The notes beneath the pieces are model-generated. The model did no database searches. It saw only the letters and a program-made list of their open reading frames with translations, and was not told the DNA's origin. 64,000 bases of DNA, from NCBI RefSeq assembly GCF_965641715.1, contig NZ_OZ282453.1; one strand, written 5' to 3'. A program made the translations under genes and the position numbers. The stretch comes from Escherichia coli. GTDB lineage: Bacteria > Pseudomonadota > Gammaproteobacteria > Enterobacterales > Enterobacteriaceae. Below, in pieces: positions 7,314 through 53,891 of the stretch (position 1 is its first letter; each line of letters opens with the position of its first letter).

Positions 7314-8435
7314 ATGGTTGCTGAATTGACCGCATTACGCGATCAAATTGATGAAGTCGATAAAGCGCTGCTGAATTTATTAGCGAAGCGTCTGGAACTG
7401 GTTGCTGAAGTGGGAGAGGTGAAAAGCCGCTTTGGACTGCCTATTTATGTTCCGGAGCGAGAGGCATCTATGTTGGCCTCGCGTCGTGCAGAGGCGGAAG
7501 CTCTGGGTGTACCGCCAGATCTGATTGAGGATGTTTTGCGTCGGGTGATGCGTGAATCTTACTCCAGTGAAAACGACAAAGGATTTAAAACACTTTGTCC
7601 GTCACTGCGTCCGGTGGTTATCGTCGGCGGTGGCGGTCAGATGGGACGCCTGTTCGAGAAGATGCTGACACTATCGGGTTATCAGGTGCGGATTCTGGAG
7701 CAACATGACTGGGATCGAGCGGCTGATATTGTTGCCGATGCCGGAATGGTGATTGTTAGTGTGCCAATCCACGTTACTGAGCAAGTTATTGGCAAATTAC
7801 CGCCTTTACCGAAAGATTGTATTCTGGTTGATCTGGCATCAGTGAAAAATGGACCATTACAGGCCATGCTGGCGGCGCACGATGGCCCGGTACTGGGGTT
7901 ACACCCAATGTTCGGTCCGGACAGCGGTAGCCTGGCAAAGCAAGTTGTGGTCTGGTGTGATGGACGTAAACCGGAAGCATACCAATGGTTTCTGGAGCAA
8001 ATTCAGGTCTGGGGCGCTCGGTTGCATCGTATTAGCGCCGTCGAGCACGATCAGAATATGGCGTTTATTCAGGCACTGCGCCACTTTGCTACTTTTGCTT
8101 ACGGGCTGCACCTGGCAGAAGAAAATGTTCAGCTTGAGCAACTTCTGTCGCTCTCTTCGCCGATTTACCGCCTTGAGCTGGCGATGGTCGGGCGACTGTT
8201 CGCTCAGGATCCGCAGCTTTATGCCGACATTATTATGTCGTCAGAGCGTAATCTGGCGTTAATCAAACGTTACTATAAGCGTTTCGGCGAGGCGATTGAG
8301 TTGCTGGAGCAGGGCGATAAGCAGGCGTTTATTGACAGTTTCCGCAAGGTGGAGCACTGGTTCGGCGATTACGCACAGCGTTTTCAGAGTGAAAGCCGCG
8401 TGTTATTGCGTCAGGCGAATGACAATCGCCAGTAA
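7314..8435 (+). CDS. tyrA: Chorismate mutase / prephenate dehydrogenase TyrA
   Basis: 373-aa ORF; N-terminal chorismate-mutase helix plus GGGGQMG NAD-binding site. Confidence 0.95.
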
Positions 8436-8442
8436 TAATCCA

Positions 8443-8470
8443 GTGCCGGATGATTCACATCATCCGGCAC
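8443..8470. terminator. Bidirectional hairpin between convergent tyrA and pheA
   Basis: gtgccggatg / catccggcac perfect 10-bp stem. Confidence 0.7.
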
Positions 8471-8477
8471 CTTTTCA

Positions 8478-9638
8478 TCAGGTTGGATCAACAGGCACTA
8501 CGTTCTCACTTGGGTAACAGCCCAATACCTTCATTGAACGGGTGATTTCCCCTAACTCTTTCAATGCTTTTTGCATTTCCGCTGATTCAAGATTGGCCTG
8601 AATATCCAGATAAAACATCTCTTCCCATGGATTACCGTGAATCGGGCGTGATTCCAGACGGGTCATAATCAGATTGTGGTTGCGCAGTACCAGCAACGCT
8701 TCAACCAGCGCACCGGCTTGTTGCCCGGTCGCCATTAACAACGTCGTTTTCGCCGGAACCTGATCAGACACGTTAATGGCTTTACGCGCCAACACCACAA
8801 ATCGGGTGAAGTTTTGTCGCTGATTCGCTTCAATCCGCTCCAGTACCTGCAAACCGTACAAAGTGCCGCCAGCTTCGCTTCCCAACGCAGCAACATGCGG
8901 TGATTTTGCCTGTGCAACCTTTTCCATTGCCGCAGACGTACTTTCGGTATATTCAATCTTCCAGTGCGGATAACGATTAAGGAATTTGCTGCATTGCTGG
9001 AATGGCTGCGGATGGCTGTAGACCGTATTGATGGTGGATAAATCAGTAGTGCCGGAGACCAACAAACAATGGTCGATAGTTAACGTCATCTCGCCAACAA
9101 TCGACAAGCTGGTATGTTGCAGCAGATCGTAAACGTCATTTATGGCACCGGAGCTGGTATTTTCAATCGGTACGACGGCATAGTCGGCCTGGCCGGTTTC
9201 CACCTGATTAAAAATATCGGCAAATTTGGCGCAGCCACTTTCAATGAATTGCTCAAAGTGACGGGCAGCATACTGGCGCGCCGCAAGATGGGAATAAGAA
9301 CCTTTGGGGCCGAGAAAAGCGATGCGTGCTGAGTGCGGATTAATTTTATTGAGATGTTGTTGGAGCAAAGCCTGCTGAGTTAATACGGAATCTTCAATGA
9401 TGAGCTGGAACAGGCGAGTAATGTAATGGGCGTCCAGATGGTGCGCTTTACCGAGCGTAATTAATCTTTCCAGTAAATCGCGTTCACGATCAATATCACG
9501 TACCGGGCGATGCGAGAGCAGTTTGGCTTTTCCCACCTCGACGGCCAGTTCGCGCCGCTCTGCGAGTAATGCTAATAATTTTTCATCCAGCGCGCTGATT
9601 TTCTCTCGCAGCGCCAGTAACGGGTTTTCCGATGTCAT
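8478..9638 (-). CDS. pheA: Chorismate mutase / prephenate dehydratase PheA
   Basis: 386-aa [25 protein letters not shown]... Confidence 0.95.
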
Positions 9639-9661
9639 AGTGTTGCCTTTTTGTTATCAAT

Positions 9662-9690
9662 AAAAAAGGCCCCCCGATTTGGGAGGCCTT
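9662..9690 (-). terminator. pheA attenuator terminator
   Basis: Minus strand reads aaggcctcccaaatcggggggcctttttt, between pheL and pheA. Confidence 0.8.
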
Positions 9691-9736
9691 ATTGTTCGTC
9701 TTCGCATTCTGTTTCATACGACGAAACGCCTCCCAT

Positions 9737-9784
9737 TCAGGGGAAGGTAAAAAAGAATGCGAAGAAAAACGGTGTGTGTTTCAT
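9737..9784 (-). CDS. pheL: pheA leader peptide PheL (15 aa, below the ORF-track cutoff)
   Basis: Minus strand atgaaacacacaccgtttttcttcgcattcttttttaccttcccctga = [15 protein letters not shown] with 7 Phe codons. Confidence 0.9.
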   Translation of the reverse strand: [15 protein letters not shown]

Positions 9785-9840
9785 GTTTGTTTCCTTAAGT
9801 GACTTTAGTACAGTACCCGTACTGTTTTCACGCTGTCAAC
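9785..9840 (-). promoter_or_regulatory. pheL-pheA promoter region (-35 TTGACA at 9834..9839)
   Basis: Minus strand gTTGACAgcgtgaaaacagtacgggTACTGTACTAAAgtc upstream of pheL; the -10 choice is ambiguous. Confidence 0.6.
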
Positions 9841-9865
9841 AAAAAACGCGCCCGAAGGTGCGTTG
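9839..9865. repeat. attL core
   Basis: acaaaaaacgcgcccgaaggTgcgttg; 26/27 identical to 45803..45829. Confidence 0.85.
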
Positions 9866-9866
9866 T

Positions 9867-9912
9867 AAAACCCACTGAATTCAATGTTTTCCCTTTGTTT
9901 TCAGTGGGTTTT
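9867..9912. terminator. 13-bp inverted repeat hairpin downstream of int (candidate bidirectional terminator or P' arm element)
   Basis: aaaacccactgaa (9867-9879) / ttcagtgggtttt (9900-9912); a third aaaacccact copy lies at 9943-9952. Confidence 0.5.
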
Positions 9913-9951
9913 GTTATTGGTGGGGGGTACTGATTACCCTATAAAACCCAC

Positions 9952-10941
9952 TTATGTGGATGAAATGTGGATGCCTCCTTTTAACGGATTAAGTGAAATT
10001 GCATCCTGGAGGAAATCAGGAGCGAGGTGCGCATAGGTCATAGTTTGCTGGATCGTGGCGTGCCCCATAATTCGCTGGAGCGTAAGTATATTTCCTCCAT
10101 TAATCATAAAGTGAGCTGCAAAGGTATGGCGTAGAACATGTACTGCCTGCCCTTTTGGTAGATCAGGTTTAACACTGCGAAGCACCTTGCGATATTCCTC
10201 ATAATTGACGTCAAACAAAAGGCCGGATTTCTTTGTTTTGATCTCGCTAACAACTTCATCAGAGACAGGAATAATTCGAACTTTTCCGTTTTTAGTTTTG
10301 TTAAACGTCACGCGGTTATTGATGATGTGTTCCGCGCGCAGATTTTTCGCTTCTCCCCATCTCGCACCAGTACTGAGACAAAGTAGCGTAATCCGCCGGG
10401 CATCACCGCTTACTGCATCCAGTAATTTGGCAATTTCTTCCGTGGTGAGATACGTCATTTCGGGTGATTTTCGTTTCAAAGAGGGGAGGGCGCGGAGCGG
10501 ATTTTCTCCGTGAAATTCCCCGGCATTTGCCAGGAGTGTAAACATTCCTCCGAGATCCGACTCATCACGCCGAACAGTAGACTCTTTTACTCCCAAAGAT
10601 AAACGGGAGCTTCGATAAGCGGCCATGAAACGAGCATTAATCTGGCTAACCCTTGGATCATTCATTTCTTTGATGATTTTTTTCAACCTGGTTAGAACGC
10701 CGTTAGCATATGGCTTATTGCGTCCACCCAATTCCCACCATAACGGAAGCAGATCTGAGAGATGACGTTGCTCTGTTGGCTTTTCAAGCCATTCCTTATC
10801 GTGCATGTGGCTGAGAACATAACGCTCAAAGGCCACTGCATCTGCCTTTTTCTTAAAAATCCGCTGAATCCGACGTCCACTTCGGCCACGCGGTCTAACA
10901 TCCACTTTATACCGTCCACCATCGAGTGCTTTAATTGCCAT
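9952..10941 (-). CDS. int: Tyrosine recombinase / phage integrase
   Basis: C-terminal catalytic motifs (ARWGEA..., HVLRHTFAAHF, GHATIQQTMTYAHL); ATG 10941 has a ggaggg RBS, while the ORF-track start 10974 has none. Confidence 0.9.
   Translation of the reverse strand: MAIKALDGGRYKVDVRPRGRSGRRIQRIFKKKADAVAFERYVLSHMHDKEWLEKPTEQRHLSDLLPLWWELGGRNKPYANGVLTRLKKIIKEMNDPRVSQINARFMAAYRSSRLSLGVKESTVRRDESDLGGMFTLLANAGEFHGENPLRALPSLKRKSPEMTYLTTEEIAKLLDAVSGDARRITLLCLSTGARWGEAKNLRAEHIINNRVTFNKTKNGKVRIIPVSDEVVSEIKTKKSGLLFDVNYEEYRKVLRSVKPDLPKGQAVHVLRHTFAAHFMINGGNILTLQRIMGHATIQQTMTYAHLAPDFLQDAISLNPLKGGIHISST
9954..9973 (+). repeat. Candidate Int arm-type sites (2 x ATGTGGATG, 11-bp phasing)
   Basis: atgtggatg at 9954-9962 and 9965-9973; matching TGTGGA pair near attR (45743-45762). 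Confidence 0.45.
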
Positions 10942-11007
10942 TGGCAAGCCCTCCGGTGAAACGAGGAAAGACATTTCCAGTTTGTAAAACGTAAGAATAA
11001 TAAAGGG

Positions 11008-11310
11008 TTAACCAATTTTCCTTTCGGATGGGGGTAAATCCGTTGGTTCTTGCCCATAGTGTGCGAGAGCCGGAGCTATCTGCCCGGATTCAGGCGCAAT
11101 TTTTCCAGTCATAAACCACAACGCATATTTCTCAAATCTGGGGTTGTTTAGTATTTGCTCAATTACTTCAGCATTAGGGATAGTTTTACCGCTTTCATAT
11201 CTCCACAGAGCATCACGGTTTAAACCAAGCATTTTTGCTGTATCCGGGAGGCTAGTAAGTCTCTCGCTTTCACGCATGATTTTTATGCGCTCTCCAATAG
11301 TCATACGCAT
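11008..11310 (-). CDS. C: P2 C-type immunity repressor (HTH)
   Basis: KYALWFMTGKIAPESGQIAPALAHYGQ closely matches the remembered P2 C; ~100 aa from ATG 11310 (the ORF-track start 11325 is TTG). Confidence 0.85.
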   Translation of the reverse strand: MRMTIGERIKIMRESERLTSLPDTAKMLGLNRDALWRYESGKTIPNAEVIEQILNNPRFEKYALWFMTGKIAPESGQIAPALAHYGQEPTDLPPSERKIG

Positions 11311-11358
11311 GTTGCAATTCTCCAACGTCTGTATTAATGTTTATACAAATGAGTTTGA

Positions 11359-11390
11359 TTTGGGGCATCCGTCGCAAGAAATACCCCAAA
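11359..11390. promoter_or_regulatory. 10-bp inverted repeat in the C/cox switch region (candidate operator)
   Basis: tttggggcat (11359-11368) / ataccccaaa (11381-11390), 9/10 complementary, 12-bp spacer. Confidence 0.35.
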
Positions 11391-11405
11391 CAGGGAGATT
11401 ATCAC

Positions 11406-11732
11406 ATGAATGAAGAACTATTGAGGGCATTGTTTAAGATCCCAGACCCCATCACCGTCGATGAGTTTTCCCGCCGCACAGGTAAGACCGAATCAGCCGT
11501 AAGAAAGTTGGTAGAGCGTCGACTCATCCCTCTAACTACTGAGCGCGAGGTTTTAGGCGAGGAAGGGAGTTCGCGCCGTCTTCTCATCCTTTGGAATGAG
11601 TGGCTCGAAATGGTCTATGACGCAACGAAACAGCTTCCTCCTGAGCGTAAAGATTGGCGCAATCACTGGCTGAAGAAAGCCAAGAAGCTGGCGGAAGATT
11701 TGGGATTAGGTTTTCTTAATTTTGCTGCATGA
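11406..11732 (+). CDS. Cox/Apl-like early regulator-excisionase (putative)
   Basis: First gene divergent from C; ATG 11406 has a gggag RBS; HTH-like VDEFSRRTGKTESAVRKLVERRLIP resembles the P2 Cox N-terminus. Confidence 0.55.
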   Translation: MNEELLRALFKIPDPITVDEFSRRTGKTESAVRKLVERRLIPLTTEREVLGEEGSSRRLLILWNEWLEMVYDATKQLPPERKDWRNHWLKKAKKLAEDLGLGFLNFAA

Positions 11733-11750
11733 GATGCAGGGAGTTTTGAT

Positions 11751-12092
11751 ATGAAACAGCAACGTAATTCACGCTTTCGTAATGGCGCTGAACGCCACGC
11801 TAACCGTTTCGCTACCAGCGCATCACGCAGCAACATCCGCTACAGCCTGAGTGATACACACGCAACGCCGGATGGCTACCCAGTAAAACAAATCGGCGAG
11901 CATGCCTGGCTGATTGAAAAAGCTGGAATCGTGGTCCACAAATGCCCACGCAATCCGTTTACCGGAAACCGCATTTTTGCATTGAGCTGCGGCGACAATC
12001 AGTTCGGGCAGGATTTCACATTGTACGAAGCGCTACGCACGGTTGATCGTCTGCTCCGCGGACAAAGTTTTATTAAACAGGCTGATTTATAA
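11751..12092 (+). CDS. Hypothetical early-operon protein
   Basis: 113-aa ORF in the early operon. Confidence 0.5.
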   Translation: MKQQRNSRFRNGAERHANRFATSASRSNIRYSLSDTHATPDGYPVKQIGEHAWLIEKAGIVVHKCPRNPFTGNRIFALSCGDNQFGQDFTLYEALRTVDRLLRGQSFIKQADL

Positions 12093-13490: not shown

Positions 13491-13753
13491 CCATTCTGGA
13501 CTACATCGCTACTCATCCGGGGTGTAGCGGCGGAGAGATCGCCGCAGCACTGAATACTCCAACCACAGCCATTAATGCTGAGTTACGCCAACTTTGGCGC
13601 GGCGGCTTAGTCATCAGAACAAACCGCAGCACAGGTGGTCGCGCTCGCAAAACTGGAGGCCAGGCTTCTTACCACGTAAACCCGATGCCGTTCGGGTGTA
13701 GCAATCCACTTACTCACATGTTTAACCAGCTACTGAAGGAAGCCAGAGCATGA
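13487..13753 (+). CDS. Putative winged-helix DNA-binding protein
   Basis: 88 aa; ILDYIATHPGCSGGEIAAALNTPTTAINAELRQLWRGGLV looks like a MarR/wHTH recognition unit. Confidence 0.45.
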   Translation: MTILDYIATHPGCSGGEIAAALNTPTTAINAELRQLWRGGLVIRTNRSTGGRARKTGGQASYHVNPMPFGCSNPLTHMFNQLLKEARA

Positions 13754-14049
13754 GCACCATCAACCACCAGAAGCTACGCGAACTGGCATTTGCCCTGCAA
13801 CGAATGGCAACGCCTCAAAAATTACTGGCATTTCGCGCAATGCTCTCGCCGTCTGCTGTGCTGGCATTGCTGGATGAGCTGGAGCACGCCAGAACCACGG
13901 CTCCTGCCATTCGCCTGACGCTCCATCATGAAATCGCTGATTTCTGCGCGACATTGGAGGCGCCAGGCGAACCGGAAACGCCGGAAGCAATACAGCAAGA
14001 GCCGCTGCAACGCATTGACAAGGTTTTTGATTTTTTTCTGAACCAGTAA
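13750..14049 (+). CDS. Hypothetical protein
   Basis: 99-aa ORF translationally coupled (ATGA) to the upstream ORF. Confidence 0.5.
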   Translation: MSTINHQKLRELAFALQRMATPQKLLAFRAMLSPSAVLALLDELEHARTTAPAIRLTLHHEIADFCATLEAPGEPETPEAIQQEPLQRIDKVFDFFLNQ

Positions 14050-14141
14050 GAAACCAGAGCATGCACACACAAAAAAACCGCTTGCCATGCCGCAATCAGT
14101 CAGGTTACATTTTCGCTGCACCTCATAAAACGGGTGCCGGG

Positions 14142-14166
14142 TTTCGCAGCCTGCTGACAACCAAAG
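14142..14166 (+). promoter_or_regulatory. Upstream target boxes a1 (tttcgcagc) and b1 (caaccaaag) for the c4-like RNA
   Basis: Complementary to 14287-14293 and 14272-14280 respectively. Confidence 0.5.
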
Positions 14167-14232
14167 CGCACAACCGCGCCAGCGGTTTTTTTGTGCGTAC
14201 TGTATTGCCACGTTTTTTTCGCGTCAGAATTA

Positions 14233-14314
14233 TGGCGGGGCGTACGGGGCCGACTTCGGTCGGGCCGGGTTCTTTGGTTGCCGGTACTGCGAACCCCGTA
14301 CGTCTCGCCACCCA
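14233..14314 (+). ncRNA. P1 c4-like antisense regulatory RNA (~80 nt)
   Basis: 16-17 bp terminal helix (14233-14249 / 14294-14310) followed by ACCCA; UUCG-tetraloop hairpin 14250-14263; second hairpin whose 12-nt loop carries b'; single-stranded a' 14287-14293. Confidence 0.55.
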
Positions 14315-14317
14315 CAG

Positions 14318-14364
14318 TTTCGCAGCTCTGGATGGTGAGTTTTCAAAACTTACAACCAAAGAGG
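14318..14364 (+). promoter_or_regulatory. Downstream target boxes a2 (14318-14326) and b2 (14353-14362); b2 overlaps the SD aagagg of ORF 14372
   Basis: caaccaaaga is a perfect 10-nt complement of loop 14271-14280. Confidence 0.5.
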
Positions 14365-14371
14365 CCACACC

Positions 14372-14602
14372 ATGGCAAACCGCAAACAGCACCGCGCTAT
14401 CGCGGAGCGTCGTCACATCCAGACTGAAATCAACCGCAGACTTTCCCGCGCATTCCGCGTCGCTAAAATCATGCACATCAATATGCTGCATGAGCGTAGC
14501 TGCGAACTTTCAAACCTCTACTCATCCGCTGTTTTCAGCTATCTGGCGGATGATCTGCGCGAGCTTCAACAGCTCATCCAGCAGCAAAACAAACTCCATT
14601 AA
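14372..14602 (+). CDS. Hypothetical 76-aa protein in the position of P1 icd (first gene under c4-like control)
   Basis: ATG with SD aagagg; basic helical protein; the similarity to icd is positional only. Confidence 0.5.
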   Translation: MANRKQHRAIAERRHIQTEINRRLSRAFRVAKIMHINMLHERSCELSNLYSSAVFSYLADDLRELQQLIQQQNKLH

Positions 14603-14674
14603 TTCCTGTTCCGGGCCTTTCCTGCACCTTGCGGCGGGAGGCCTTCGCACATCTGTAACAAGAGGATTGCCGCA

Positions 14675-15040
14675 ATGATTCTCGCCAACGACTTTCTTGA
14701 ATACCTGCTCAACACAGAGCGTGATCTTGCCGCTCGCGTACGTGATCGTTATGACATGTATCTGAAATCCCTGCCTGTACCGCAGCTCGCTGACGGAAAG
14801 ATTGTTATTGATGGTCGCTACATGATTGACAGCCACGAGGGAAATTACAGGCTTTACCGCATTGAAGGTGGCACCCCGTCCGTTATTGGCATTTACCAGC
14901 GCCCATCCTCTGCAATCGTCGATGTGATTGCCGACAGCATCCGCATCACACATCGCCATGCCGACACAGAAGACACCGTGCTGGAAATTCAGCGGCTGGC
15001 TGCCGTCTGCCGCGACACCCTGAATGGCATGACGAAGTAA
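14675..15040 (+). CDS. Hypothetical protein
   Basis: 121-aa ORF immediately upstream of gene A. Confidence 0.55.
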   Translation: MILANDFLEYLLNTERDLAARVRDRYDMYLKSLPVPQLADGKIVIDGRYMIDSHEGNYRLYRIEGGTPSVIGIYQRPSSAIVDVIADSIRITHRHADTEDTVLEIQRLAAVCRDTLNGMTK

Positions 15041-15046
15041 ATCACT

Positions 15047-17869
15047 ATGACGGCAGAGTACATCAGGGACTGGCAACAACCGCGCCACGCAGTGGGACGT
15101 GAAGGAACGGGGATCCCCGTTCCTGAATCCGCGCTTTCCTCCTGGCTGGATGCCTACCGGGCAGAGAACGAGCGCCGCCAGGAAATGGCTGATGCGGCGT
15201 TCTCCGCCACGCCGCTGGGCAACCTGATTAATAAAAGCCTGGATGCACAGGAAAAACAGGACAAAACCATCACACTGGCAGGAGACGCCAGAAAACAGGT
15301 ACGCGGTGCGGTGGATGAAGCCATGGCCTCGCTGCGCCTGCTGCCGTCCTATCTGCGCGATCCGCTTATTCGCCACCTCTCCTTCCTGCGCAAAAAACAG
15401 GAAGCCGATCGCCGGAAAGGCAAAAAGAGCTGGCAGGCTGAACGCTACGCGCGCGGAACCCTGCGCAAAATATTCGAACGTCTGGACCGCACCGACCACC
15501 GCTGGCTGACACCGGGTTATCGCTCCCTTGCCGGACGCGAACGCCTGGATGATTTGCTTTACCTGCCGCAGCTCAACAAGCACCAGATACAGACGCTGGC
15601 CACCATGACGGCGGCGATGTTCAGCAGCACCTTCGAAAAACTCTGCGATGGCTTTGGCGCGACTGATGGCGAGCTGACCATGGATGTAACGCTGAAGGCG
15701 TATCAGATGCTGGCCCGCATGGCGTTACACCTGCACGCCATGCCTCCGCATTATGATGCACTGACAACAGACAAAGACCGGAGGAACGAACCGGACACGG
15801 AGCTGCTGCCGGGCGCAATCCTTCGCCTGACCTGTGCGGAATGGTGGAAACGCAAACTGTGGCTGTTACGTTGCGAGTGGCGGGAAGAACAACTCCGCGC
15901 CGCCTGTCTGGTTTCCAGAAAAACATCGCCCTATCTGAGCCAGGACGCGTTAAGCGAGTTTCGCGCACAGCGCGAGAAAACACGCGATTTCCTGAAAAGT
16001 TTCATGCTGGAAAACGAAGACGGGTTCACGATTGATCTCGAGACGGTGTATTACGCGGGAGTAAGTAACCCGGTTCATCGTAAGGCAGAAATGATGGCCA
16101 CCATGAAGGGGCTGGAACTTCTGGCCGAAGCCCGTGGCGACAAAGCGGTGTTTCTGACTGTCACCTGCCCGTCAAAATACCACGCCACAACAGAGAACGG
16201 TCATCCGAATCCCAAATGGAACGGGGCCACCATGCGCGACTCCAGCGATTACCTGGTTAACACGTTTTTTGCGGCGGTCCGCAAGAAACTGAACCGCGAC
16301 GGCCTGCGCTGGTATGGCATCCGCACGGTGGAGCCTCACCATGACGGCACCGTGCACTGGCATATGATGGTCTTTGCTCATCCGGAAGAAATCGACACCA
16401 TTGTGTCCCACACCCGCGATATTGCCATTCAGGAAGATCGTCACGAGCTGGGTGATGATATTACCCCACGCTTTAAGGCGGAGTACGTCGACGGCTCAAA
16501 AGGCACACCGACCAGCTACATCGCCACCTACATCGGGAAAAACCTGGACAGCCGTGCCGTGGATGGCATCGACCCGAAAACGGGCAAGCCACGCGTTGAC
16601 CACGAAACCGGAAAATCAATGGCCGAGAGCGTGGAACGCGCCATCGGCTGGGCGCGCCTTCATCGGGTCCGCCAGTTCCAGTTCTTTGGCATCCCCTCCC
16701 GTCAGGTGTGGCGTGAACTGCGCCGCCTTGCCAGCCAGATGGCTCGCAACCCGGAAGGACCGCAACGGCTGAAGGATGACGCAATGGACGCGGTTCTTGC
16801 TGCCGCTGATGCCGGATGTTTTGCCACCTACATAGAGAAACAGGGCGGCGTACTTGTTCCACGCAAGGACTACCTGATTCGCACCGCCTACGACCTCGCA
16901 GATGAGCTGAACGATTACGGTGAACAGAGCGTACAGATTTACGGGATCTGGTCACCGCTCATCGGGGAGTCTTCCCGCGTATGCACGCATCCGGACAACT
17001 GGAAGCTGGTAAGACGCAAACCGGAAGCGGAAGACAGCGCCCGCGAAAATGGTTTTGACCTTCAGGGCGGCCCTGCCGCCCCTTGGACTCGTGGCAATAA
17101 CTGTCCCCGTGTACAGGAAACAGGCAACAGCGGGACAGAACAGTCGAAAGAACGGCCAGCACCGTGGCCGCAGCTTCCTGACGGCGTTGACGTGAACGAA
17201 TGGATGCGCTCACTGAAACGGCACGAACGCCGGGCGCTGATGCGTTCGCTTCGTGACAAACAGGCAAAAAACAGCAGTGATGAAATGCAGAGCTGGACAC
17301 AGAGCCGCAAACAGCCACGGCCTTTGCCTGATAACCACGAATTACTCGCTAAAGAATGGCGGGAGTCTGCTGAATCTCTCGGCCTGCATATCGGTGAACA
17401 ACAGATGCAGCACCTGTTACGGGGCGGCAGTCTGTACGTTGACGGCAGCATCATTGCACCGCAGGGATTTGAAATTGTACGCAAACCGGATACCCGCCCG
17501 GACAGCCGAATCACGCAGCTCTGGCAGCGCCTGAGCCGTAATCATGGCGTAAGCAGCACGGAGATCCGCCATAACCCGGTCGCCAGCTATCTGGCACAGC
17601 TGGGGGCATCAGACCCTGAAGCCGCCGCACGCCTGGCATCCACACTTCAGCAGGACCAGAACACCATGAAAACACCCGTTACCGTGCTTTCTGACATGCT
17701 GCGCGCCATCCGCGACGCAGAGCACGCACAGAGAATCAGTGAAACCACTGAACGCGCCAGCCGCAAAGCAGACCTGCTGCGGGGTGGCCTGACCAGTGGA
17801 AACAAAAAACAGACAGAAACGGGATTCACAAATCCCATAAATGAGCAAAAAACGTGCCGCGATATATGA
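15047..17869 (+). CDS. A: P2 gpA-type rolling-circle replication initiator (HUH endonuclease) with a long C-terminal extension
   Basis: HUH-like VHWHMMVF and YIATYIGK tyrosine motif; 940 aa versus ~760 aa remembered for P2 A. Confidence 0.85.
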   Translation: MTAEYIRDWQQPRHAVGREGTGIPVPESALSSWLDAYRAENERRQEMADAAFSATPLGNLINKSLDAQEKQDKTITLAGDARKQVRGAVDEAMASLRLLPSYLRDPLIRHLSFLRKKQEADRRKGKKSWQAERYARGTLRKIFERLDRTDHRWLTPGYRSLAGRERLDDLLYLPQLNKHQIQTLATMTAAMFSSTFEKLCDGFGATDGELTMDVTLKAYQMLARMALHLHAMPPHYDALTTDKDRRNEPDTELLPGAILRLTCAEWWKRKLWLLRCEWREEQLRAACLVSRKTSPYLSQDALSEFRAQREKTRDFLKSFMLENEDGFTIDLETVYYAGVSNPVHRKAEMMATMKGLELLAEARGDKAVFLTVTCPSKYHATTENGHPNPKWNGATMRDSSDYLVNTFFAAVRKKLNRDGLRWYGIRTVEPHHDGTVHWHMMVFAHPEEIDTIVSHTRDIAIQEDRHELGDDITPRFKAEYVDGSKGTPTSYIATYIGKNLDSRAVDGIDPKTGKPRVDHETGKSMAESVERAIGWARLHRVRQFQFFGIPSRQVWRELRRLASQMARNPEGPQRLKDDAMDAVLAAADAGCFATYIEKQGGVLVPRKDYLIRTAYDLADELNDYGEQSVQIYGIWSPLIGESSRVCTHPDNWKLVRRKPEAEDSARENGFDLQGGPAAPWTRGNNCPRVQETGNSGTEQSKERPAPWPQLPDGVDVNEWMRSLKRHERRALMRSLRDKQAKNSSDEMQSWTQSRKQPRPLPDNHELLAKEWRESAESLGLHIGEQQMQHLLRGGSLYVDGSIIAPQGFEIVRKPDTRPDSRITQLWQRLSRNHGVSSTEIRHNPVASYLAQLGASDPEAAARLASTLQQDQNTMKTPVTVLSDMLRAIRDAEHAQRISETTERASRKADLLRGGLTSGNKKQTETGFTNPINEQKTCRDI

Positions 17870-17945: not shown

Positions 17946-18905
17946 ATGAAAATTTGTATCGACGACGGCTCCACCAACATCAAGCTGGCATGGACTGAGA
18001 ACGGCGAACGCCGCAACGCCATCAGCCCGAACAGCTTCAAGTCGGAATGGTCTGCGCCGTTCGGTGGCTCGCAGCCCGCGAACTACATGCTTGATGGCGT
18101 GCGCTATGGTTTTGATCCGGTCAGCGATCGCTTTGTCCAGACGACCGACACGCAATACCAGTACAGCGATGTGAATGTCATTGCCATTCATCACGCGCTG
18201 GTCAAATCAGGCATCACGCCACAGGAGGTGGATGTGGTTGTCACCCTGCCATTGAGCGAGTATTTCGACACAAACGCACAGCCGGACATGGCCAACATCA
18301 GCCGCAAAAAAGCGAACGTTATGCGCCCGGTGGAGTACCAGAACGGCGAAACATTCACTATCCGTAACGTACGGGTTATGCCTGAATCCATTCCGGCTGG
18401 CTTTAAAGCACTGGCTGACATGAGTCCGCTTGAATCCCTGCTGATTGTGGATTTGGGCGGAACCACACTGGATGTGGCAAAGGTTCAGGGGCAACTGGCA
18501 GGTATCAGCCAGGTGTTTTGCGATCCACACGTAGGCGTTTCCCTGATGGCCGATGCCGTACTGTCGGTGATGGCCACTAACGGTATGCGTATCAGTCACC
18601 ACATCGCCAATACCATTATCGAACATCGCCATGATGAAGCCTGGTTGCGCCAGCACATCCACAATGACGCGCATTACGCCAGCCTGATGGCGGTTATTCG
18701 TGAAAAGGAAGAAACACTGAAACAACGCGTGATCCGCGCGCTGGCGGTTTTTTCGGGTTACGGGCGGGTGATGGTTGTCGGTGGCGGGGCGGAGATTGTG
18801 GCACCCGCTATCCGCGAAGCCTGCGGAGTTAATGCGACTTTCATCGCGGACGGGGTGCCACAGTTTGCTCTGGTTAATGGGCTGTACGCAATGGACAAGG
18901 AGTAA
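17946..18905 (+). CDS. parM: ParM/StbA actin-like plasmid-segregation ATPase
   Basis: Full-length similarity to remembered R1 ParM (IDDGSTNIKL, ISPNSFK, YSDVNVIAIHHAL, RKKAN, VMPESIPAG, DLGGTTLD, GGGAE). Confidence 0.85.
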   Translation: MKICIDDGSTNIKLAWTENGERRNAISPNSFKSEWSAPFGGSQPANYMLDGVRYGFDPVSDRFVQTTDTQYQYSDVNVIAIHHALVKSGITPQEVDVVVTLPLSEYFDTNAQPDMANISRKKANVMRPVEYQNGETFTIRNVRVMPESIPAGFKALADMSPLESLLIVDLGGTTLDVAKVQGQLAGISQVFCDPHVGVSLMADAVLSVMATNGMRISHHIANTIIEHRHDEAWLRQHIHNDAHYASLMAVIREKEETLKQRVIRALAVFSGYGRVMVVGGGAEIVAPAIREACGVNATFIADGVPQFALVNGLYAMDKE

Positions 18906-18909
18906 ACCA

Positions 18910-19221
18910 ATGACGACTCCAACCAGACGGATAAGTTTCTATCTGAAGCCCGCCGCCGTCAAGAACGAAGGTGAAGCATGCGCCTGGCTGGACAGCCTTA
19001 CACCAGAAGCGCGCAAAAGCGGCCAACGCGTGGCTTTTCTGGCCGGGCTGGCACTTCTGAAAATGAATCCGGCAGAGGCTTACCGACTGGCTGCATGGGC
19101 TGATGATGAAGCGTTATCAGTGACACAAACCAGGACAGAACGCCCCGCGTCACAGCCAGTATCAACCGCACAGATAACCAGTCAGATGGCCGGAAATATC
19201 CGGGCGTTATTTCCCGAATAA
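18910..19221 (+). CDS. parR: ParR-like centromere-binding adaptor
   Basis: ATG 18910 follows aaggag, 4 nt after the parM stop; ISFYLKP...LDSLTPEARKSGQRVAFLAGLAL and C-terminal IRALFPE resemble R1 ParR. Confidence 0.7.
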   Translation: MTTPTRRISFYLKPAAVKNEGEACAWLDSLTPEARKSGQRVAFLAGLALLKMNPAEAYRLAAWADDEALSVTQTRTERPASQPVSTAQITSQMAGNIRALFPE

Positions 19222-53815: not shown

Positions 53816-53891
53816 GTCCCCTTCGTCTAGAGGCCCAGGACACCGCCCTTTCACGGCGGTAACAGGGGTTCGAATCCCCTAGGGGACGCCA
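53816..53891 (+). tRNA. gltW: tRNA-Glu (UUC) in the 16S-23S spacer
   Basis: gtccccttcgtctagaggcccagg...cccTTTCACgg...ggttcgaatcccctaggggacgcca; 76 nt. Confidence 0.95.

What the first reader, a model, noticed from the sequence alone, without database searches (positions are those of the whole stretch)
14142..14374. P1 c4/icd-type antisense-RNA switch embedded in a P2-like early operon, just upstream of the replication gene block
Seen directly:
- The 320-bp gap between ORF 13750..14049 and ORF 14372 has no credible ORF.
- It encodes an ~80-nt RNA-like fold. A 16-17-bp terminal helix (14233-14249 pairing with 14294-14310, two G-U pairs) is followed by ACCCA.
- There is a ccgac-UUCG-gucgg hairpin (14250-14263).
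- A second hairpin (14264-14285) has a 12-nt loop containing tctttggttg.
- A single-stranded ctgcgaa lies at 14287-14293.
- Both single-stranded elements have complements on the same strand twice, in the order expected for antiparallel pairing. a1 tttcgcagc (14142-14150) and b1 caaccaaag (14158-14166) lie upstream. a2 tttcgcagc (14318-14326) and b2 caaccaaaga (14353-14362) lie downstream.
- b2 overlaps the Shine-Dalgarno aagagg of the 76-aa ORF at 14372.

Established knowledge: this a1b1 - a'b' - a2b2 layout, the ~77-nt size, and an acceptor-stem-like helix that makes the precursor an RNase P substrate are the hallmarks of the P1/P7 immI c4 RNA. That RNA blocks the icd ribosome-binding site and thereby downstream ant expression.

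Inference: here the regulated unit would be the 76-aa ORF, the 121-aa ORF and probably replication gene A. That would be an RNA-based second immunity or replication checkpoint in a P2-type phage, which normally relies on C/Cox only.
Basis: partly seen in the sequence, partly recalled or inferred. Interest (0 to 1): 0.78.

Follow-up and report, generated by a model that had tools for sequence, protein, structure and literature searches.

The report
C4/IsrK antisense RNA switch, P88-like prophage
The gap holds a genuine, known-type phage antisense RNA (C4 family, as in P1 and P4) with its decoy and target sites, placed so that it should block translation of an anti-repressor-like gene and probably the replication gene of a very common P2-family E. 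coli prophage.

Summary
Rfam C4 (RF01695) matches 14228-14315 at 87.1 bits against a cut-off of 45. The upstream a1/b1 segment matches Rfam isrK (RF01394) at 14118-14192 with 65.9 bits and ends in an intrinsic terminator.

The 76-aa ORF whose Shine-Dalgarno is covered by b2 belongs to the family of the P4 epsilon "derepression" protein. The phage repressor is of the P2 C type. The element is a P88-like phage (Xuanwuvirus, Peduoviridae).

In 43 distinct versions of the 300-nt module, the promoter, terminator and C4 helices are almost invariant. The six a/b sites are hypervariable and change together. All 688 a1:a'/b1:b' cells are paired, and 97.9% of 731 a':a2/b':b2 cells are paired. Across 151 contigs there are 29 specificity types.

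The closest relative is the P4 seqA-CI-seqC-epsilon region, then Gifsy-1 IsrK/STnc1160-anrP, then P1 c4-icd-ant. The early regions of P2 and 186 lack the module.

The RNA family is known, so this is a new member in a phage lineage where I found no description of it. RNA processing, repression and any effect on gene A are inferred, not shown.

The parts
14082..14111 (+). Promoter-like site of the module (TTGCCA, 18-nt spacer, TACATT). The predicted start near 14118 coincides with position 1 of the isrK model.
   Evidence: Consensus scan. The hexamers are invariant or nearly so in 43 distinct versions, mean entropy 0.09 bits. Conservation begins about 12 nt upstream of the -35 whichever of two upstream contexts is present. 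Promoter activity was not tested.
14118..14192 (+). IsrK / P4-SeqA-type leader RNA. Hairpin 1 is 14118-14137. Hairpin 2 is 14138-14153 and presents a1 in its loop. b1 is single-stranded. An intrinsic terminator follows (stem 14172-14187, then a U run to 14192).
   Evidence: Rfam isrK RF01394, 65.9 bits (gathering 50), E 7e-12, model 1-77. Terminator-like site. The terminator is invariant in relatives.
14143..14149 (+). a1 site (uucgcag), complementary to a'.
   Evidence: 7 of 7 pairs. All 43 distinct sequences are paired, and 4 of the 7 pairs show changes on both sides.
14158..14166 (+). b1 site (caaccaaag), complementary to b'.
   Evidence: 9 of 9 pairs, 100% of cells paired, 7 of the 9 pairs with changes on both sides. 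Duplex energy -12.0 kcal/mol.
14228..14315 (+). C4 antisense RNA gene (extent of the covariance-model match). The predicted mature RNA is 14234-14312 (79 nt), by alignment to the annotated ends of P1 c4.
   Evidence: RF01695, 87.1 bits. Fold energy -49.7 kcal/mol, z -4.1. The P1 c4 misc_RNA is annotated at L004 844-920, inside the model match 838-923. The mature ends given here are inferred.
14271..14280 (+). b' recognition loop of C4 (ucuuugguug).
   Evidence: Lies in the 12-nt loop of helix P3. It co-varies with both b1 and b2.
14287..14293 (+). a' single-stranded recognition element of C4 (cugcgaa).
   Evidence: Unpaired in the minimum-free-energy and consensus structures. It co-varies with both a1 and a2.
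14319..14325 (+). a2 target site (uucgcag).
   Evidence: 7 of 7 pairs with a', 100% of cells paired, 4 pairs with changes on both sides.
14353..14364 (+). b2 target site (caaccaaaga, 14353-14362) overlapping the Shine-Dalgarno aagagg (14359-14364) of ORF76.
   Evidence: 10 pairs with b', 96.5% of cells paired, 6 pairs with changes on both sides. Duplex energy -14.8 kcal/mol. The SD overlap is read directly from the sequence.
14372..14602 (+). ORF76, a homologue of the P4 epsilon derepression (anti-repressor) protein. It is the directly gated gene.
   Evidence: Pfam PF25738, 29.5 bits (gathering 27). BLASTP against P4 epsilon gives 29% identity over 66 aa, E 1e-8. P4 epsilon itself scores 170 bits on PF25738. 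RefSeq names it 'derepression protein'.
14675..15040 (+). ORF121, unknown function, in the same transcription unit.
   Evidence: phrog_3237, unknown function. No Pfam or NCBIfam match. No similarity to P4 orf151.
15047..17869 (+). Replication endonuclease (P2 gene A family), probably a distal member of the regulated unit.
   Evidence: PF05840 Phage_GPA, 438 bits. It starts 7 nt after the ORF121 stop. No promoter-like or + strand terminator-like site lies between 14372 and 15100. Its regulation is inferred.
11008..11325 (-). P2 C-type immunity repressor. This is context: it is the presumed target of the ORF76 protein.
   Evidence: phmmer against PDB 2L49/2XCJ 'C protein', E 5e-25. HTH_31.
11403..11732 (+). 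Cox-like protein, first gene of the early operon (context).
   Evidence: PF10743 Phage_Cox, E 1.4e-5, 25.3 bits, just below the gathering score of 27.5. phrog_272 Cox-like. Close relatives are annotated 'Cox family DNA-binding protein'.

Best explanation
The segment 14082-14371 is a self-contained RNA regulatory cassette of the C4 / P4-CI kind, inside the early operon of a P88-like, P2-family prophage.

Proposed mechanism:
1. A conserved promoter (about 14082-14111) starts transcription near 14118.
2. Most transcripts should stop at the intrinsic terminator (14172-14192). This yields a roughly 75-nt IsrK/SeqA-type RNA that displays a1 in a hairpin loop and b1 as a single strand.
3. Transcripts that read through, or that arrive from the early promoter Pe, carry the C4 element. 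By analogy with P1 and P4, this is cut out by RNase P at its 5' end and trimmed at its 3' end, giving a stable RNA of about 79 nt (predicted 14234-14312).
4. The two exposed elements of C4 pair with a2 (14319-14325) and b2 (14353-14362). The b'-b2 duplex covers the Shine-Dalgarno of ORF76, so the epsilon-like anti-repressor is not translated.
5. The untranslated RNA is then expected to suffer Rho-dependent termination or decay, which would lower ORF121 and replication gene A. This is the mechanism described for P1 icd-ant and P4 kil/eta-alpha.
6. The upstream a1/b1 sites, free on the short RNA or present in cis, compete for C4 and so set the threshold of the switch. In Gifsy-1, IsrK supplied in trans activates translation of the downstream anti-repressor.
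7. When the block is lifted, the ORF76 protein would inactivate the phage's P2 C-type repressor and open Pe.

Because the a and b elements differ between otherwise nearly identical phages, the RNA also defines an immunity specificity that can act in trans on phages of the same type.

Shown here: family membership, the architecture, the pairing constraints on all four interactions, the overlap with the SD, and the homology of ORF76 and of the repressor.

Inferred: transcription, processing, the direction and size of the effect, polarity on gene A, and the ORF76-C interaction.
For: - Covariance-model matches are well above the curated cut-offs for C4 (87.1 against 45) and isrK (65.9 against 50).
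- The same two models hit the experimentally defined P4 CI RNA (74.9 bits) and P4 seqA (60.8 bits), and P1 c4 (68.8 bits).
- The C4 fold leaves a' and b' unpaired, z -4.1.
- Covariation in 43 distinct sequences (alignment A2): a1:a' plus b1:b' are paired in 100% of 688 cells, 11 of 16 pairs have double changes, and the covariation score is 0.686 against 0.125 shuffled and at most 0.161 when slid. a':a2 plus b':b2 are paired in 97.9% of 731 cells, 10 of 17 pairs have double changes, score 0.630 against 0.139.
- Variation is concentrated in the six sites (0.65-0.94 bits per column). The promoter, terminator and helices show 0.00-0.21 bits.
- 29 (a', b') types occur in 151 contigs, each with matching targets. 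These were scored as exact Watson-Crick matches, so types whose b pairing includes G-U pairs or interior mismatches give shorter matches.
- b2 overlaps the SD.
- ORF76 belongs to the P4 epsilon family and the repressor to the P2 C family. P4 epsilon binds P2 C (cited in PMC2669165).
- The same isrK+C4 tandem precedes anti-repressor-type genes in mEp460 and in a Klebsiella phage-plasmid, and in P1 and P4.
- In Gifsy-1, transcripts read through the IsrK terminator, an RNA of about 80 nt is processed from them, and IsrK in trans turns on anrP translation (PMC4825925).
- P88 is mitomycin-inducible. So is Sp13, a P2-like prophage with an epsilon-like gene whose repressor lacks a peptidase motif.
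Against: - There are no expression data for this locus. The promoter, the efficiency of the terminator, RNase P processing and RNA stability are all unmeasured.
- ORF76 passes the PF25738 cut-off only narrowly (29.5 against 27) and is 29% identical to epsilon. Binding to its own C repressor is untested.
- Nothing here shows Rho-dependent polarity. ORF121 has its own SD (aagagg, 14660-14665), so gene A could be translated independently of ORF76.
- Lytic transcripts from Pe must also pass the terminator and the C4 block, and I cannot say how they escape.
- In Gifsy-1 the authors explain activation by refolding of the mRNA rather than by titration of the C4-like RNA.
- The weak c4-a1b1 score here (19.6 bits against a gathering score of 46.7) shows that the upstream element is of the IsrK/P4 subtype, not the P1 subtype.
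Confidence: 0.75

Rival explanations
1. The main action is transcription attenuation of the P4 type. C4 pairs with a1/b1 and a2/b2 on the nascent RNA and promotes termination, at the IsrK terminator and at Rho-dependent sites downstream. Blocking the SD would then be secondary. This rival is not exclusive of the best explanation.
For: The module scores like P4 seqA and CI. b1 ends 6 nt before the stem of an invariant intrinsic terminator. P4 CI RNA is described as a termination factor that pairs with seqA and seqC (PMC4825925, discussion).
Against: b2 overlaps the SD in every variant, which points to translational control. No alternative anti-terminator pairing involving a1/b1 was evident in the folds.
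Confidence: 0.3
2. The cassette serves mainly as an immunity or competition device between phages. Resident C4 RNA acts in trans on incoming P88-like phages of the same a/b type, shutting off their anti-repressor and replication genes. Diversifying selection for escape has produced the many specificity types.
For: The a and b elements are hypervariable within an otherwise 86-100% identical module, and a and b alleles are recombined in many combinations: 6 a loops by 18 b loops give 29 types. Identical ORF76 proteins are linked to different RNA types, for example L005. From my own knowledge, P1 and P7 are the precedent for heteroimmunity caused by c4 differences.
Against: No direct test was possible. 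Co-resident copies differ in 6 of 7 genomes, but identity is expected in only about 9.5% of random pairs, so this says nothing. The protein repressor C already provides immunity.
Confidence: 0.4
3. The cassette is a plasmid-style antisense copy-number control of replication initiator A, acting through a leader ORF as CopA-tap-repA does in plasmid R1. It would be used when the phage is maintained as an episome.
For: ParM and a partition protein lie directly downstream of A. A complete P88-like genome is deposited as a 34.5-kb circular plasmid. The layout is promoter, antisense RNA, small ORF, then rep gene.
Against: 1564 of 1566 places in complete E. coli genomes are chromosomal. The small ORF is an epsilon homologue, not a mere leader peptide. 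A 73-nt gap and ORF121 separate ORF76 from A. The plasmid record may simply be an excised phage circle.
Confidence: 0.12
4. The region encodes a protein, the 'ash family protein' as annotated in RefSeq, and the RNA-like features are incidental.
For: The + frame 14061-14678 matches Pfam Phage_ASH at 30 bits (gathering 26). PGAP annotates an 'ash family protein' pseudogene here.
Against: Indels of 1-2 nt in relatives break the frame: an insertion in a1 with a deletion at a2, changes in the length of the U run, and a 2-nt insertion in b'. Substitutions follow base-pairing rules, not codon rules. The frame overlaps ORF76. The same Pfam model hits the obsolete P4 'cI' ORF that spans the CI RNA.
Confidence: 0.02

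Closest known systems
Satellite phage P4 immunity region (PLE - seqA - CI RNA/seqB - seqC - kil/eta - epsilon - orf151 - alpha)
   Same: The same two RNA families appear in the same order. P4 seqA matches isrK at 60.8 bits and P4 CI matches C4 at 74.9 bits. An intrinsic terminator follows the seqA-type element. An epsilon-family gene lies downstream (PF25738) and is followed by the replication gene.
   Different: - Here the epsilon homologue is the first ORF and its SD is the b2 target. In P4, epsilon lies about 250 nt further on; from my own knowledge, the nested kil/eta ORFs lie in between and are the ORFs that seqC gates.
- The replication gene is a P2 A-type endonuclease, not the alpha primase-helicase.
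- The host element is a complete P2-family phage with a C/Cox protein switch. P4 is a satellite whose immunity factor is the RNA itself.
- ORF121 is unrelated to orf151.
Gifsy-1 IsrK - STnc1160/orf45 - anrP locus of Salmonella (PMC4825925)
   Same: There is an IsrK-family RNA with a leaky intrinsic terminator, an RNA of about 80 nt processed from read-through transcripts, and a downstream anti-repressor whose translation is gated. The isrK+C4 tandem in the lambdoid phage mEp460 is about 72% identical to this one.
   Different: The downstream gene there is a large Rha/Ant-type anti-repressor in a lambdoid phage. The published model invokes refolding of the mRNA by IsrK and translation of orf45. 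Here no ORF in that position is conserved.
P1/P7 immI: c4 - icd - ant1/2
   Same: The a1 b1 - c4(b' a') - a2 b2 order is the same, and b2 lies at the ribosome-binding site of the first small ORF (annotated in NC_005856). P1 c4 matches C4 at 68.8 bits. The gated product antagonises the phage repressor.
   Different: ORF76 is not an Icd homologue, and there is no large Ant protein. The P1 a1b1 element is of the c4-a1b1 subtype (51 bits) and matches isrK only weakly (35 bits). The reverse is true here: isrK 65.9 bits and c4-a1b1 19.6 bits.
Sp13, the P2-like prophage of E. coli O157 Sakai that carries a P4 epsilon-like gene (PMC2669165)
   Same: It is a P2-family prophage with an epsilon homologue and a repressor without a peptidase motif, yet it is mitomycin-inducible. 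The authors suggested that the epsilon-like gene is responsible.
   Different: That paper does not mention an antisense RNA. I did not examine the Sp13 sequence, so I have not established that it carries this cassette.

Membership tests
C4 antisense RNA (Rfam RF01695; P1/P7 c4, P4 CI) | Score at or above the curated gathering threshold of the covariance model, over the full model length | tested here: met
   87.1 bits against 45; model positions 1-87 of 87; E 8e-16.
C4 antisense RNA (Rfam RF01695; P1/P7 c4, P4 CI) | Long closing helix P1 enclosing a P2 hairpin with a stable tetraloop and a P3 hairpin. b' lies in the P3 loop and a' is single-stranded between P3 and the 3' strand of P1. | tested here: met
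   17-bp P1, UUCG tetraloop, 12-nt P3 loop, in both the model alignment and the minimum-free-energy fold, z -4.1.
C4 antisense RNA (Rfam RF01695; P1/P7 c4, P4 CI) | Complementary target pairs on the same strand, upstream (a1, b1) and downstream (a2, b2), in antiparallel order | tested here: met
   The sites are present. Pairing is kept through compensatory changes in 43 distinct sequences and in 29 types across 151 contigs.
C4 antisense RNA (Rfam RF01695; P1/P7 c4, P4 CI) | b2 overlaps the ribosome-binding site of the first downstream ORF | tested here: met
   b2 is 14353-14362; the SD aagagg is 14359-14364; the ATG is at 14372. The AGAGG/AGGGG motif sits at the 3' end of b2 in most variants.
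C4 antisense RNA (Rfam RF01695; P1/P7 c4, P4 CI) | Mature RNA of about 77 nt, released from a longer precursor by RNase P | not testable with these tools
   Only the acceptor-like helix followed by ACC(C)A, and alignment to the annotated P1 c4 ends, suggest this.
C4 antisense RNA (Rfam RF01695; P1/P7 c4, P4 CI) | Represses translation or transcription of a downstream anti-repressor or replication operon | not testable with these tools
   The gene content fits: an epsilon-family ORF followed by the GPA replication gene. The effect itself was not measured.
IsrK / P4 SeqA-type RNA (Rfam RF01394) | Score at or above the gathering threshold; two 5' hairpins followed by a Rho-independent terminator | tested here: met
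   65.9 bits against 50; model 1-77. Terminator-like site at 14172-14187 plus a T run.
IsrK / P4 SeqA-type RNA (Rfam RF01394) | Hfq binding, and trans-activation of the read-through mRNA | not testable with these tools
   Known only for Gifsy-1 (PMC4825925).
c4-a1b1 motif (Rfam RF03163) | Score at or above the gathering threshold | tested here: not met
   19.6 bits against 46.7. The element is of the IsrK subtype. I do not file it under RF03163, although it carries functional a1/b1 sites.
P4 epsilon 'Derepression' protein family (Pfam PF25738) | Score at or above the gathering threshold, and similarity to P4 epsilon | tested here: met
   29.5 bits against 27. BLASTP against P4 epsilon: E 1e-8, 29% identity over 66 aa. 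The alignment has 15 invariant columns, including F55-S56-Y57-L58.
P4 epsilon 'Derepression' protein family (Pfam PF25738) | Binds and inactivates a P2 C-type repressor | not testable with these tools
   A P2 C-type repressor is encoded by the same phage. The interaction was not tested.
P1 Icd (host cell division inhibitor) | Sequence similarity of the first gated ORF to Icd | tested here: not met
   ORF76 gave no Icd-type match in Pfam or NCBIfam. Its family is PF25738.

The most novel reading that the evidence does not exclude
P88-like helper-type phages carry the same RNA-gated epsilon cassette as the satellite P4. If so, the satellite's tool for derepressing its helper and its RNA immunity would be a borrowed copy of an induction switch that some P2-family phages use on their own C repressor, or the transfer went the other way. 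On this reading, the 29 or more combinatorial a/b types form an RNA 'immunity barcode' under diversifying selection. The barcode would decide which co-infecting phages, and possibly which P4-like satellites, can silence each other's anti-repressor and replication genes.
Probability: 0.3. Interest if true: 0.65.

Novelty: new member of a known kind. Interest (0 to 1): 0.45.

Why it matters
P88-like prophages are among the commonest E. coli prophages. The module is present in 1399 of 5426 complete genomes.

In the RefSeq and GenBank records I inspected, the locus carries no RNA annotation. It is either blank or labelled 'ash family protein' or 'hypothetical protein'.

Recognising the cassette gives a concrete, testable route by which a P2-family phage with a non-cleavable C-type repressor could be induced. 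It does this by linking the epsilon-like gene, noted in 2009 for the P2-like prophage Sp13, to an RNA gate.

It also supplies a natural set of at least 29 orthogonal antisense/target specificities in a constant scaffold. That set is useful for studying RNA-RNA recognition and for synthetic regulators.

Finally, it ties the regulatory region of satellite P4 to that of a helper-type phage.

Tried and rejected
- **Second promoter.** The promoter-like site at 14205-14233 has a -35 that is not conserved (TTGCCA or TCGCCA). Its -10 (AATTAT) is the conserved 5' flank of the C4 family itself, also present in P1. A start about 7 nt downstream would fall inside helix P1. I do not count it as a part.
- **Co-resident copies.** I tested whether copies in one genome carry different RNA types. 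They do in 6 of 7 genomes, but random expectation of identity is only about 9.5%, and the seventh pair is 0 mismatches over 931 nt at contig ends. The test is uninformative.
- **Genome-contig scan.** The scan with ORF76 returned only 3 loci. I used IMG/VR scans instead.
- **Duplex folding.** RNAcofold and duplexfold on whole RNAs gave uninformative or artefactual duplexes, because loop-loop pairing with an intact C4 fold cannot be represented. Only the local duplex energies are quoted.
- **Other protein comparisons.** ORF121 shows no similarity to P4 orf151. NCBIfam gave nothing for ORF76, ORF121 or gene A.
- **LexA box.** Read by eye, TACTGTAT at 14195-14202 is a good half-site, but the second half (ACAG) is missing. 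No SOS operator is claimed.
- **Extra a'-like sequence.** The CTGCGAA inside ORF76 (14500-14506) is consistent with chance.
- **Literature.** In the searchable library, none of the 22 titles and abstracts listed, out of 26 papers that use the phrase 'c4 antisense RNA', concerns P2-like phages. The P88 genome paper and a 2026 survey of P2-like viruses contain neither 'antisense' nor 'derepression'.
Full report

Yes. Reading 13700-14700 confirms every coordinate in the finding.
- The 17-bp closing helix is 14233-14249 with 14294-14310 and has two G-U pairs.
- The ccgac-UUCG-gucgg hairpin is 14250-14263.
- The GCCGG/CCGGU hairpin has a 12-nt loop (14269-14280).
- The single-stranded cugcgaa is 14287-14293.
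- The direct-strand complements are a1 (14142-14150), b1 (14158-14166), a2 (14318-14326) and b2 (14353-14362).
- b2 overlaps the aagagg Shine-Dalgarno, 7 nt before the ATG at 14372.

Rfam C4 (RF01695) matches 14228-14315 on the + strand at 87.1 bits (gathering score 45, E 8e-16, full model length). The RNA alone folds into the same structure at -49.7 kcal/mol, z -4.1. The reverse strand gives only z -1.9.

CAACCAAAG occurs three times in 64 kb, and all three lie here. The 7-mer of the a sites is not rare by itself.

**2. What else is there?**

The a1/b1 segment is itself a curated RNA family. Rfam isrK (RF01394) matches 14118-14192 at 65.9 bits (gathering score 50). It has three parts.
- A first hairpin.
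- A second hairpin whose loop is a1, followed by b1 as a single strand.
- An intrinsic terminator: stem 14172-14187, then a U run.

A promoter-like site (TTGCCA, 18 nt, TACATT; 14082-14111) would place the start at the first base of the isrK model.

The 76-aa ORF gated by b2 belongs to Pfam PF25738 'Derepression' (29.5 bits, cut-off 27). It is 29% identical to the P4 epsilon protein (E 1e-8). P4 epsilon itself scores 170 bits on that model.

Downstream lie ORF121 (unknown function), a 940-aa P2 A-type replication endonuclease (PF05840, 438 bits) and ParM.

Upstream lie a P2 C-type repressor (PDB 2XCJ/2L49, E 5e-25) and a Cox-like gene. The Cox match is just below the Pfam cut-off.

The element is a P88-like phage of genus Xuanwuvirus, family Peduoviridae. 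It is about 95% identical to P88 over 83% of a 23-kb query. It is integrated next to the pheL leader, with its integrase at 9952-10974.

**3. Evidence that the pairings matter**

I collected relatives of ORF76 with their flanks from IMG/VR, one RefSeq E. coli genome, phage P88 and three genomes from the genome collection. I then aligned the 43 distinct versions of the 300 nt upstream of the ATG (alignment A2).

The promoter hexamers, IsrK hairpin 1, the terminator and the C4 helices are almost invariant, at 0.00-0.21 bits per column. The six a/b sites carry 0.65-0.94 bits per column, and they change together.
- For a1:a' plus b1:b', all 688 cells are standard pairs. Eleven of 16 pairs have changes on both sides. 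The covariation score is 0.686, against 0.125 in shuffles and at most 0.161 with slid partners.
- For a':a2 plus b':b2, 97.9% of 731 cells pair and 10 of 17 pairs have double changes. The score is 0.630 against 0.139.

With two more scans, 151 contigs give 6 a' loops and 18 b' loops in 29 combinations. Each combination has complementary upstream and downstream sites. The sites were scored as exact Watson-Crick matches, so b sites that pair through G-U or with interior mismatches give shorter matches.

Identical ORF76 proteins occur with different RNA types, for example L005. The specificity elements are therefore exchanged or evolve faster than their surroundings.

This is strong evidence that C4 pairs with both target sets. 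It is the pattern expected of an immunity specificity.

**4. Not a protein**

RefSeq annotates an 'ash family protein' pseudogene over this DNA. The + frame 14061-14678 does reach the Pfam Phage_ASH cut-off (30 bits against 26).

The same model hits the obsolete P4 'cI' ORF (59.7 bits). That ORF spans the P4 CI RNA at 8420-8507.

In relatives the frame is broken by 1-2-nt indels. The substitutions obey base-pairing rules. I conclude that the 'Ash' signal is conserved RNA-coding DNA read as protein.

**5. Comparison with known systems**

The two Rfam models hit the experimentally defined elements of P4: CI at 74.9 bits and seqA at 60.8 bits. They also hit P1: c4 at 68.8 bits, with the a1b1 motif at 51 bits. 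P4 has epsilon and then its replication gene downstream of the RNA. P1 has icd-ant.

The Gifsy-1 study states that IsrK is the structural homologue of P4 SeqA. It reports that transcripts read through the IsrK terminator and that an RNA of about 80 nt (STnc1160) is processed from them. It also reports that IsrK in trans activates translation of the downstream anti-repressor (PMC4825925).

The isrK+C4 tandem also precedes a Rha-type anti-repressor in lambdoid mEp460. In a Klebsiella phage-plasmid that encodes a protelomerase, it precedes an icd-like gene and a Bro-N gene.

Weinberg et al. (PMC2864571, supplement) already reported 593 C4 representatives across Proteobacteria and phages, together with the a1b1 motif.

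By contrast, the int-to-end regions of P2 and 186 give no C4, isrK or c4-a1b1 match at E <= 1.

An epsilon-like gene in a P2-like prophage (Sp13 of O157 Sakai), and its possible link to mitomycin inducibility, was noted in 2009 (PMC2669165). P88 is also mitomycin-inducible.

In the searchable library I found no paper that connects a C4 RNA to P2-family phages.

**6. Most likely mechanism**

Steps marked (inferred) are not shown by my data.
1. The conserved promoter drives an IsrK-type RNA that mostly terminates at 14192 (inferred).
2. Read-through transcripts, or transcripts from Pe, carry C4. C4 is released by RNase P and 3' trimming as an RNA of about 79 nt, 14234-14312. These ends come from alignment to the annotated P1 c4 ends (inferred).
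3. C4 a'/b' pair with a2/b2. The b'-b2 duplex (-14.8 kcal/mol) covers the ORF76 SD. The pairing constraint and the SD overlap are shown. Repression is inferred.
4. Untranslated RNA is terminated or degraded, lowering ORF121 and A (inferred by analogy with P1 and P4).
5. a1/b1 compete for C4 and set the threshold. The pairing constraint is shown. The decoy role is inferred, with precedent in the P1 proposal and the Gifsy-1 data.
6. The ORF76 protein inactivates the P2 C-type repressor (inferred from homology to epsilon).

The hypervariable a/b types suggest that C4 also acts in trans as a type-specific immunity factor.

Rival or complementary readings are P4-style attenuation, a mainly inter-phage immunity role, and plasmid-style copy-number control. 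The last is suggested by ParM, the partition gene, and a complete P88-like genome deposited as a 34.5-kb circular plasmid. Each is set out with its tests in the rival explanations.

**7. Verdict**

Three refinements apply: an IsrK/SeqA-type leader with a terminator, an epsilon-type rather than Icd-type first gene, and P4 as the nearest relative.

The RNA and the module belong to a known, curated kind. What is new is the host lineage and the unusually clear population-level record of co-varying specificities. The host lineage is a P2-family helper-type phage that also has a C/Cox switch.

I rate it a new member of a known kind, with interest 0.45.

Noticed in passing
window 14061-14678 (+ frame); L003 8168-8584 (-): Pfam Phage_ASH (PF10554) matches the conceptual translation of the isrK/C4 DNA here (30 bits). 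It also matches the obsolete P4 'cI' ORF that spans the CI RNA (59.7 bits). The real P4 epsilon is PF25738 (170 bits). RefSeq 'ash family protein' calls at this locus therefore look like conserved RNA read as protein. A survey of P4-like satellites used PF10554 as its 'epsilon' marker (PMC8628076).
   Followed up: partly
window 17946-19221; L092 (NZ_CP148288.1): A ParM gene and a partition-protein gene lie directly after replication gene A in this P2-family prophage. A complete P88-like genome is deposited as a 34.5-kb circular, non-mobilizable E. coli 'plasmid'. This may indicate an episomal (phage-plasmid) state, or it may be an excised circle captured by assembly.
   Followed up: partly
window 9800-11772: The integrase, C and cox segment has no megablast match to P88; the match to P88 begins at about 11772. 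The rest of the phage is about 95% identical. The protein immunity region is therefore of a different type from that of P88, so the region is mosaic.
   Followed up: no
window 9660-10974: The prophage integrase (9952-10974, - strand) abuts the pheL leader (Rfam Phe_leader, 9660-9785). No tRNA gene lies at this end; the only tRNA in the window is tRNA-Glu in the rRNA operon at 53816. The attachment site was not determined.
   Followed up: no
L088 (mEp460) 1141-2292 against 1501-1689: The annotated 'regulatory protein Rha' CDS of phage mEp460 runs across full-length isrK (1501-1577) and C4 (1602-1689) matches. Its annotated start is probably too far upstream.
   Followed up: no
window 14045-14075, and the same position in L061, L010, L006 and L062: Conservation of the cassette starts abruptly about 12 nt upstream of the -35 hexamer. 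Two unrelated upstream contexts occur among relatives: ...AGTAAGAAACCAGA... after the Ead/Ea22-like ORF, and ...AGGATTTTTTAGTATGCCGTTCT.... This suggests the cassette plus its promoter is a recombination module.
   Followed up: partly
L007 (NZ_JBQPOM010000071.1): A contig labelled Vagococcus sp. (a Firmicute) carries a P88-like module with 84% ORF76 identity and an enterobacterial-type cassette. This is probably contamination or a mislabelled assembly.
   Followed up: no
window 14195-14202: TACTGTAT, a good LexA half-site, lies in the spacer between the IsrK terminator and C4. The second half-site is absent. This was read by eye only.
   Followed up: no
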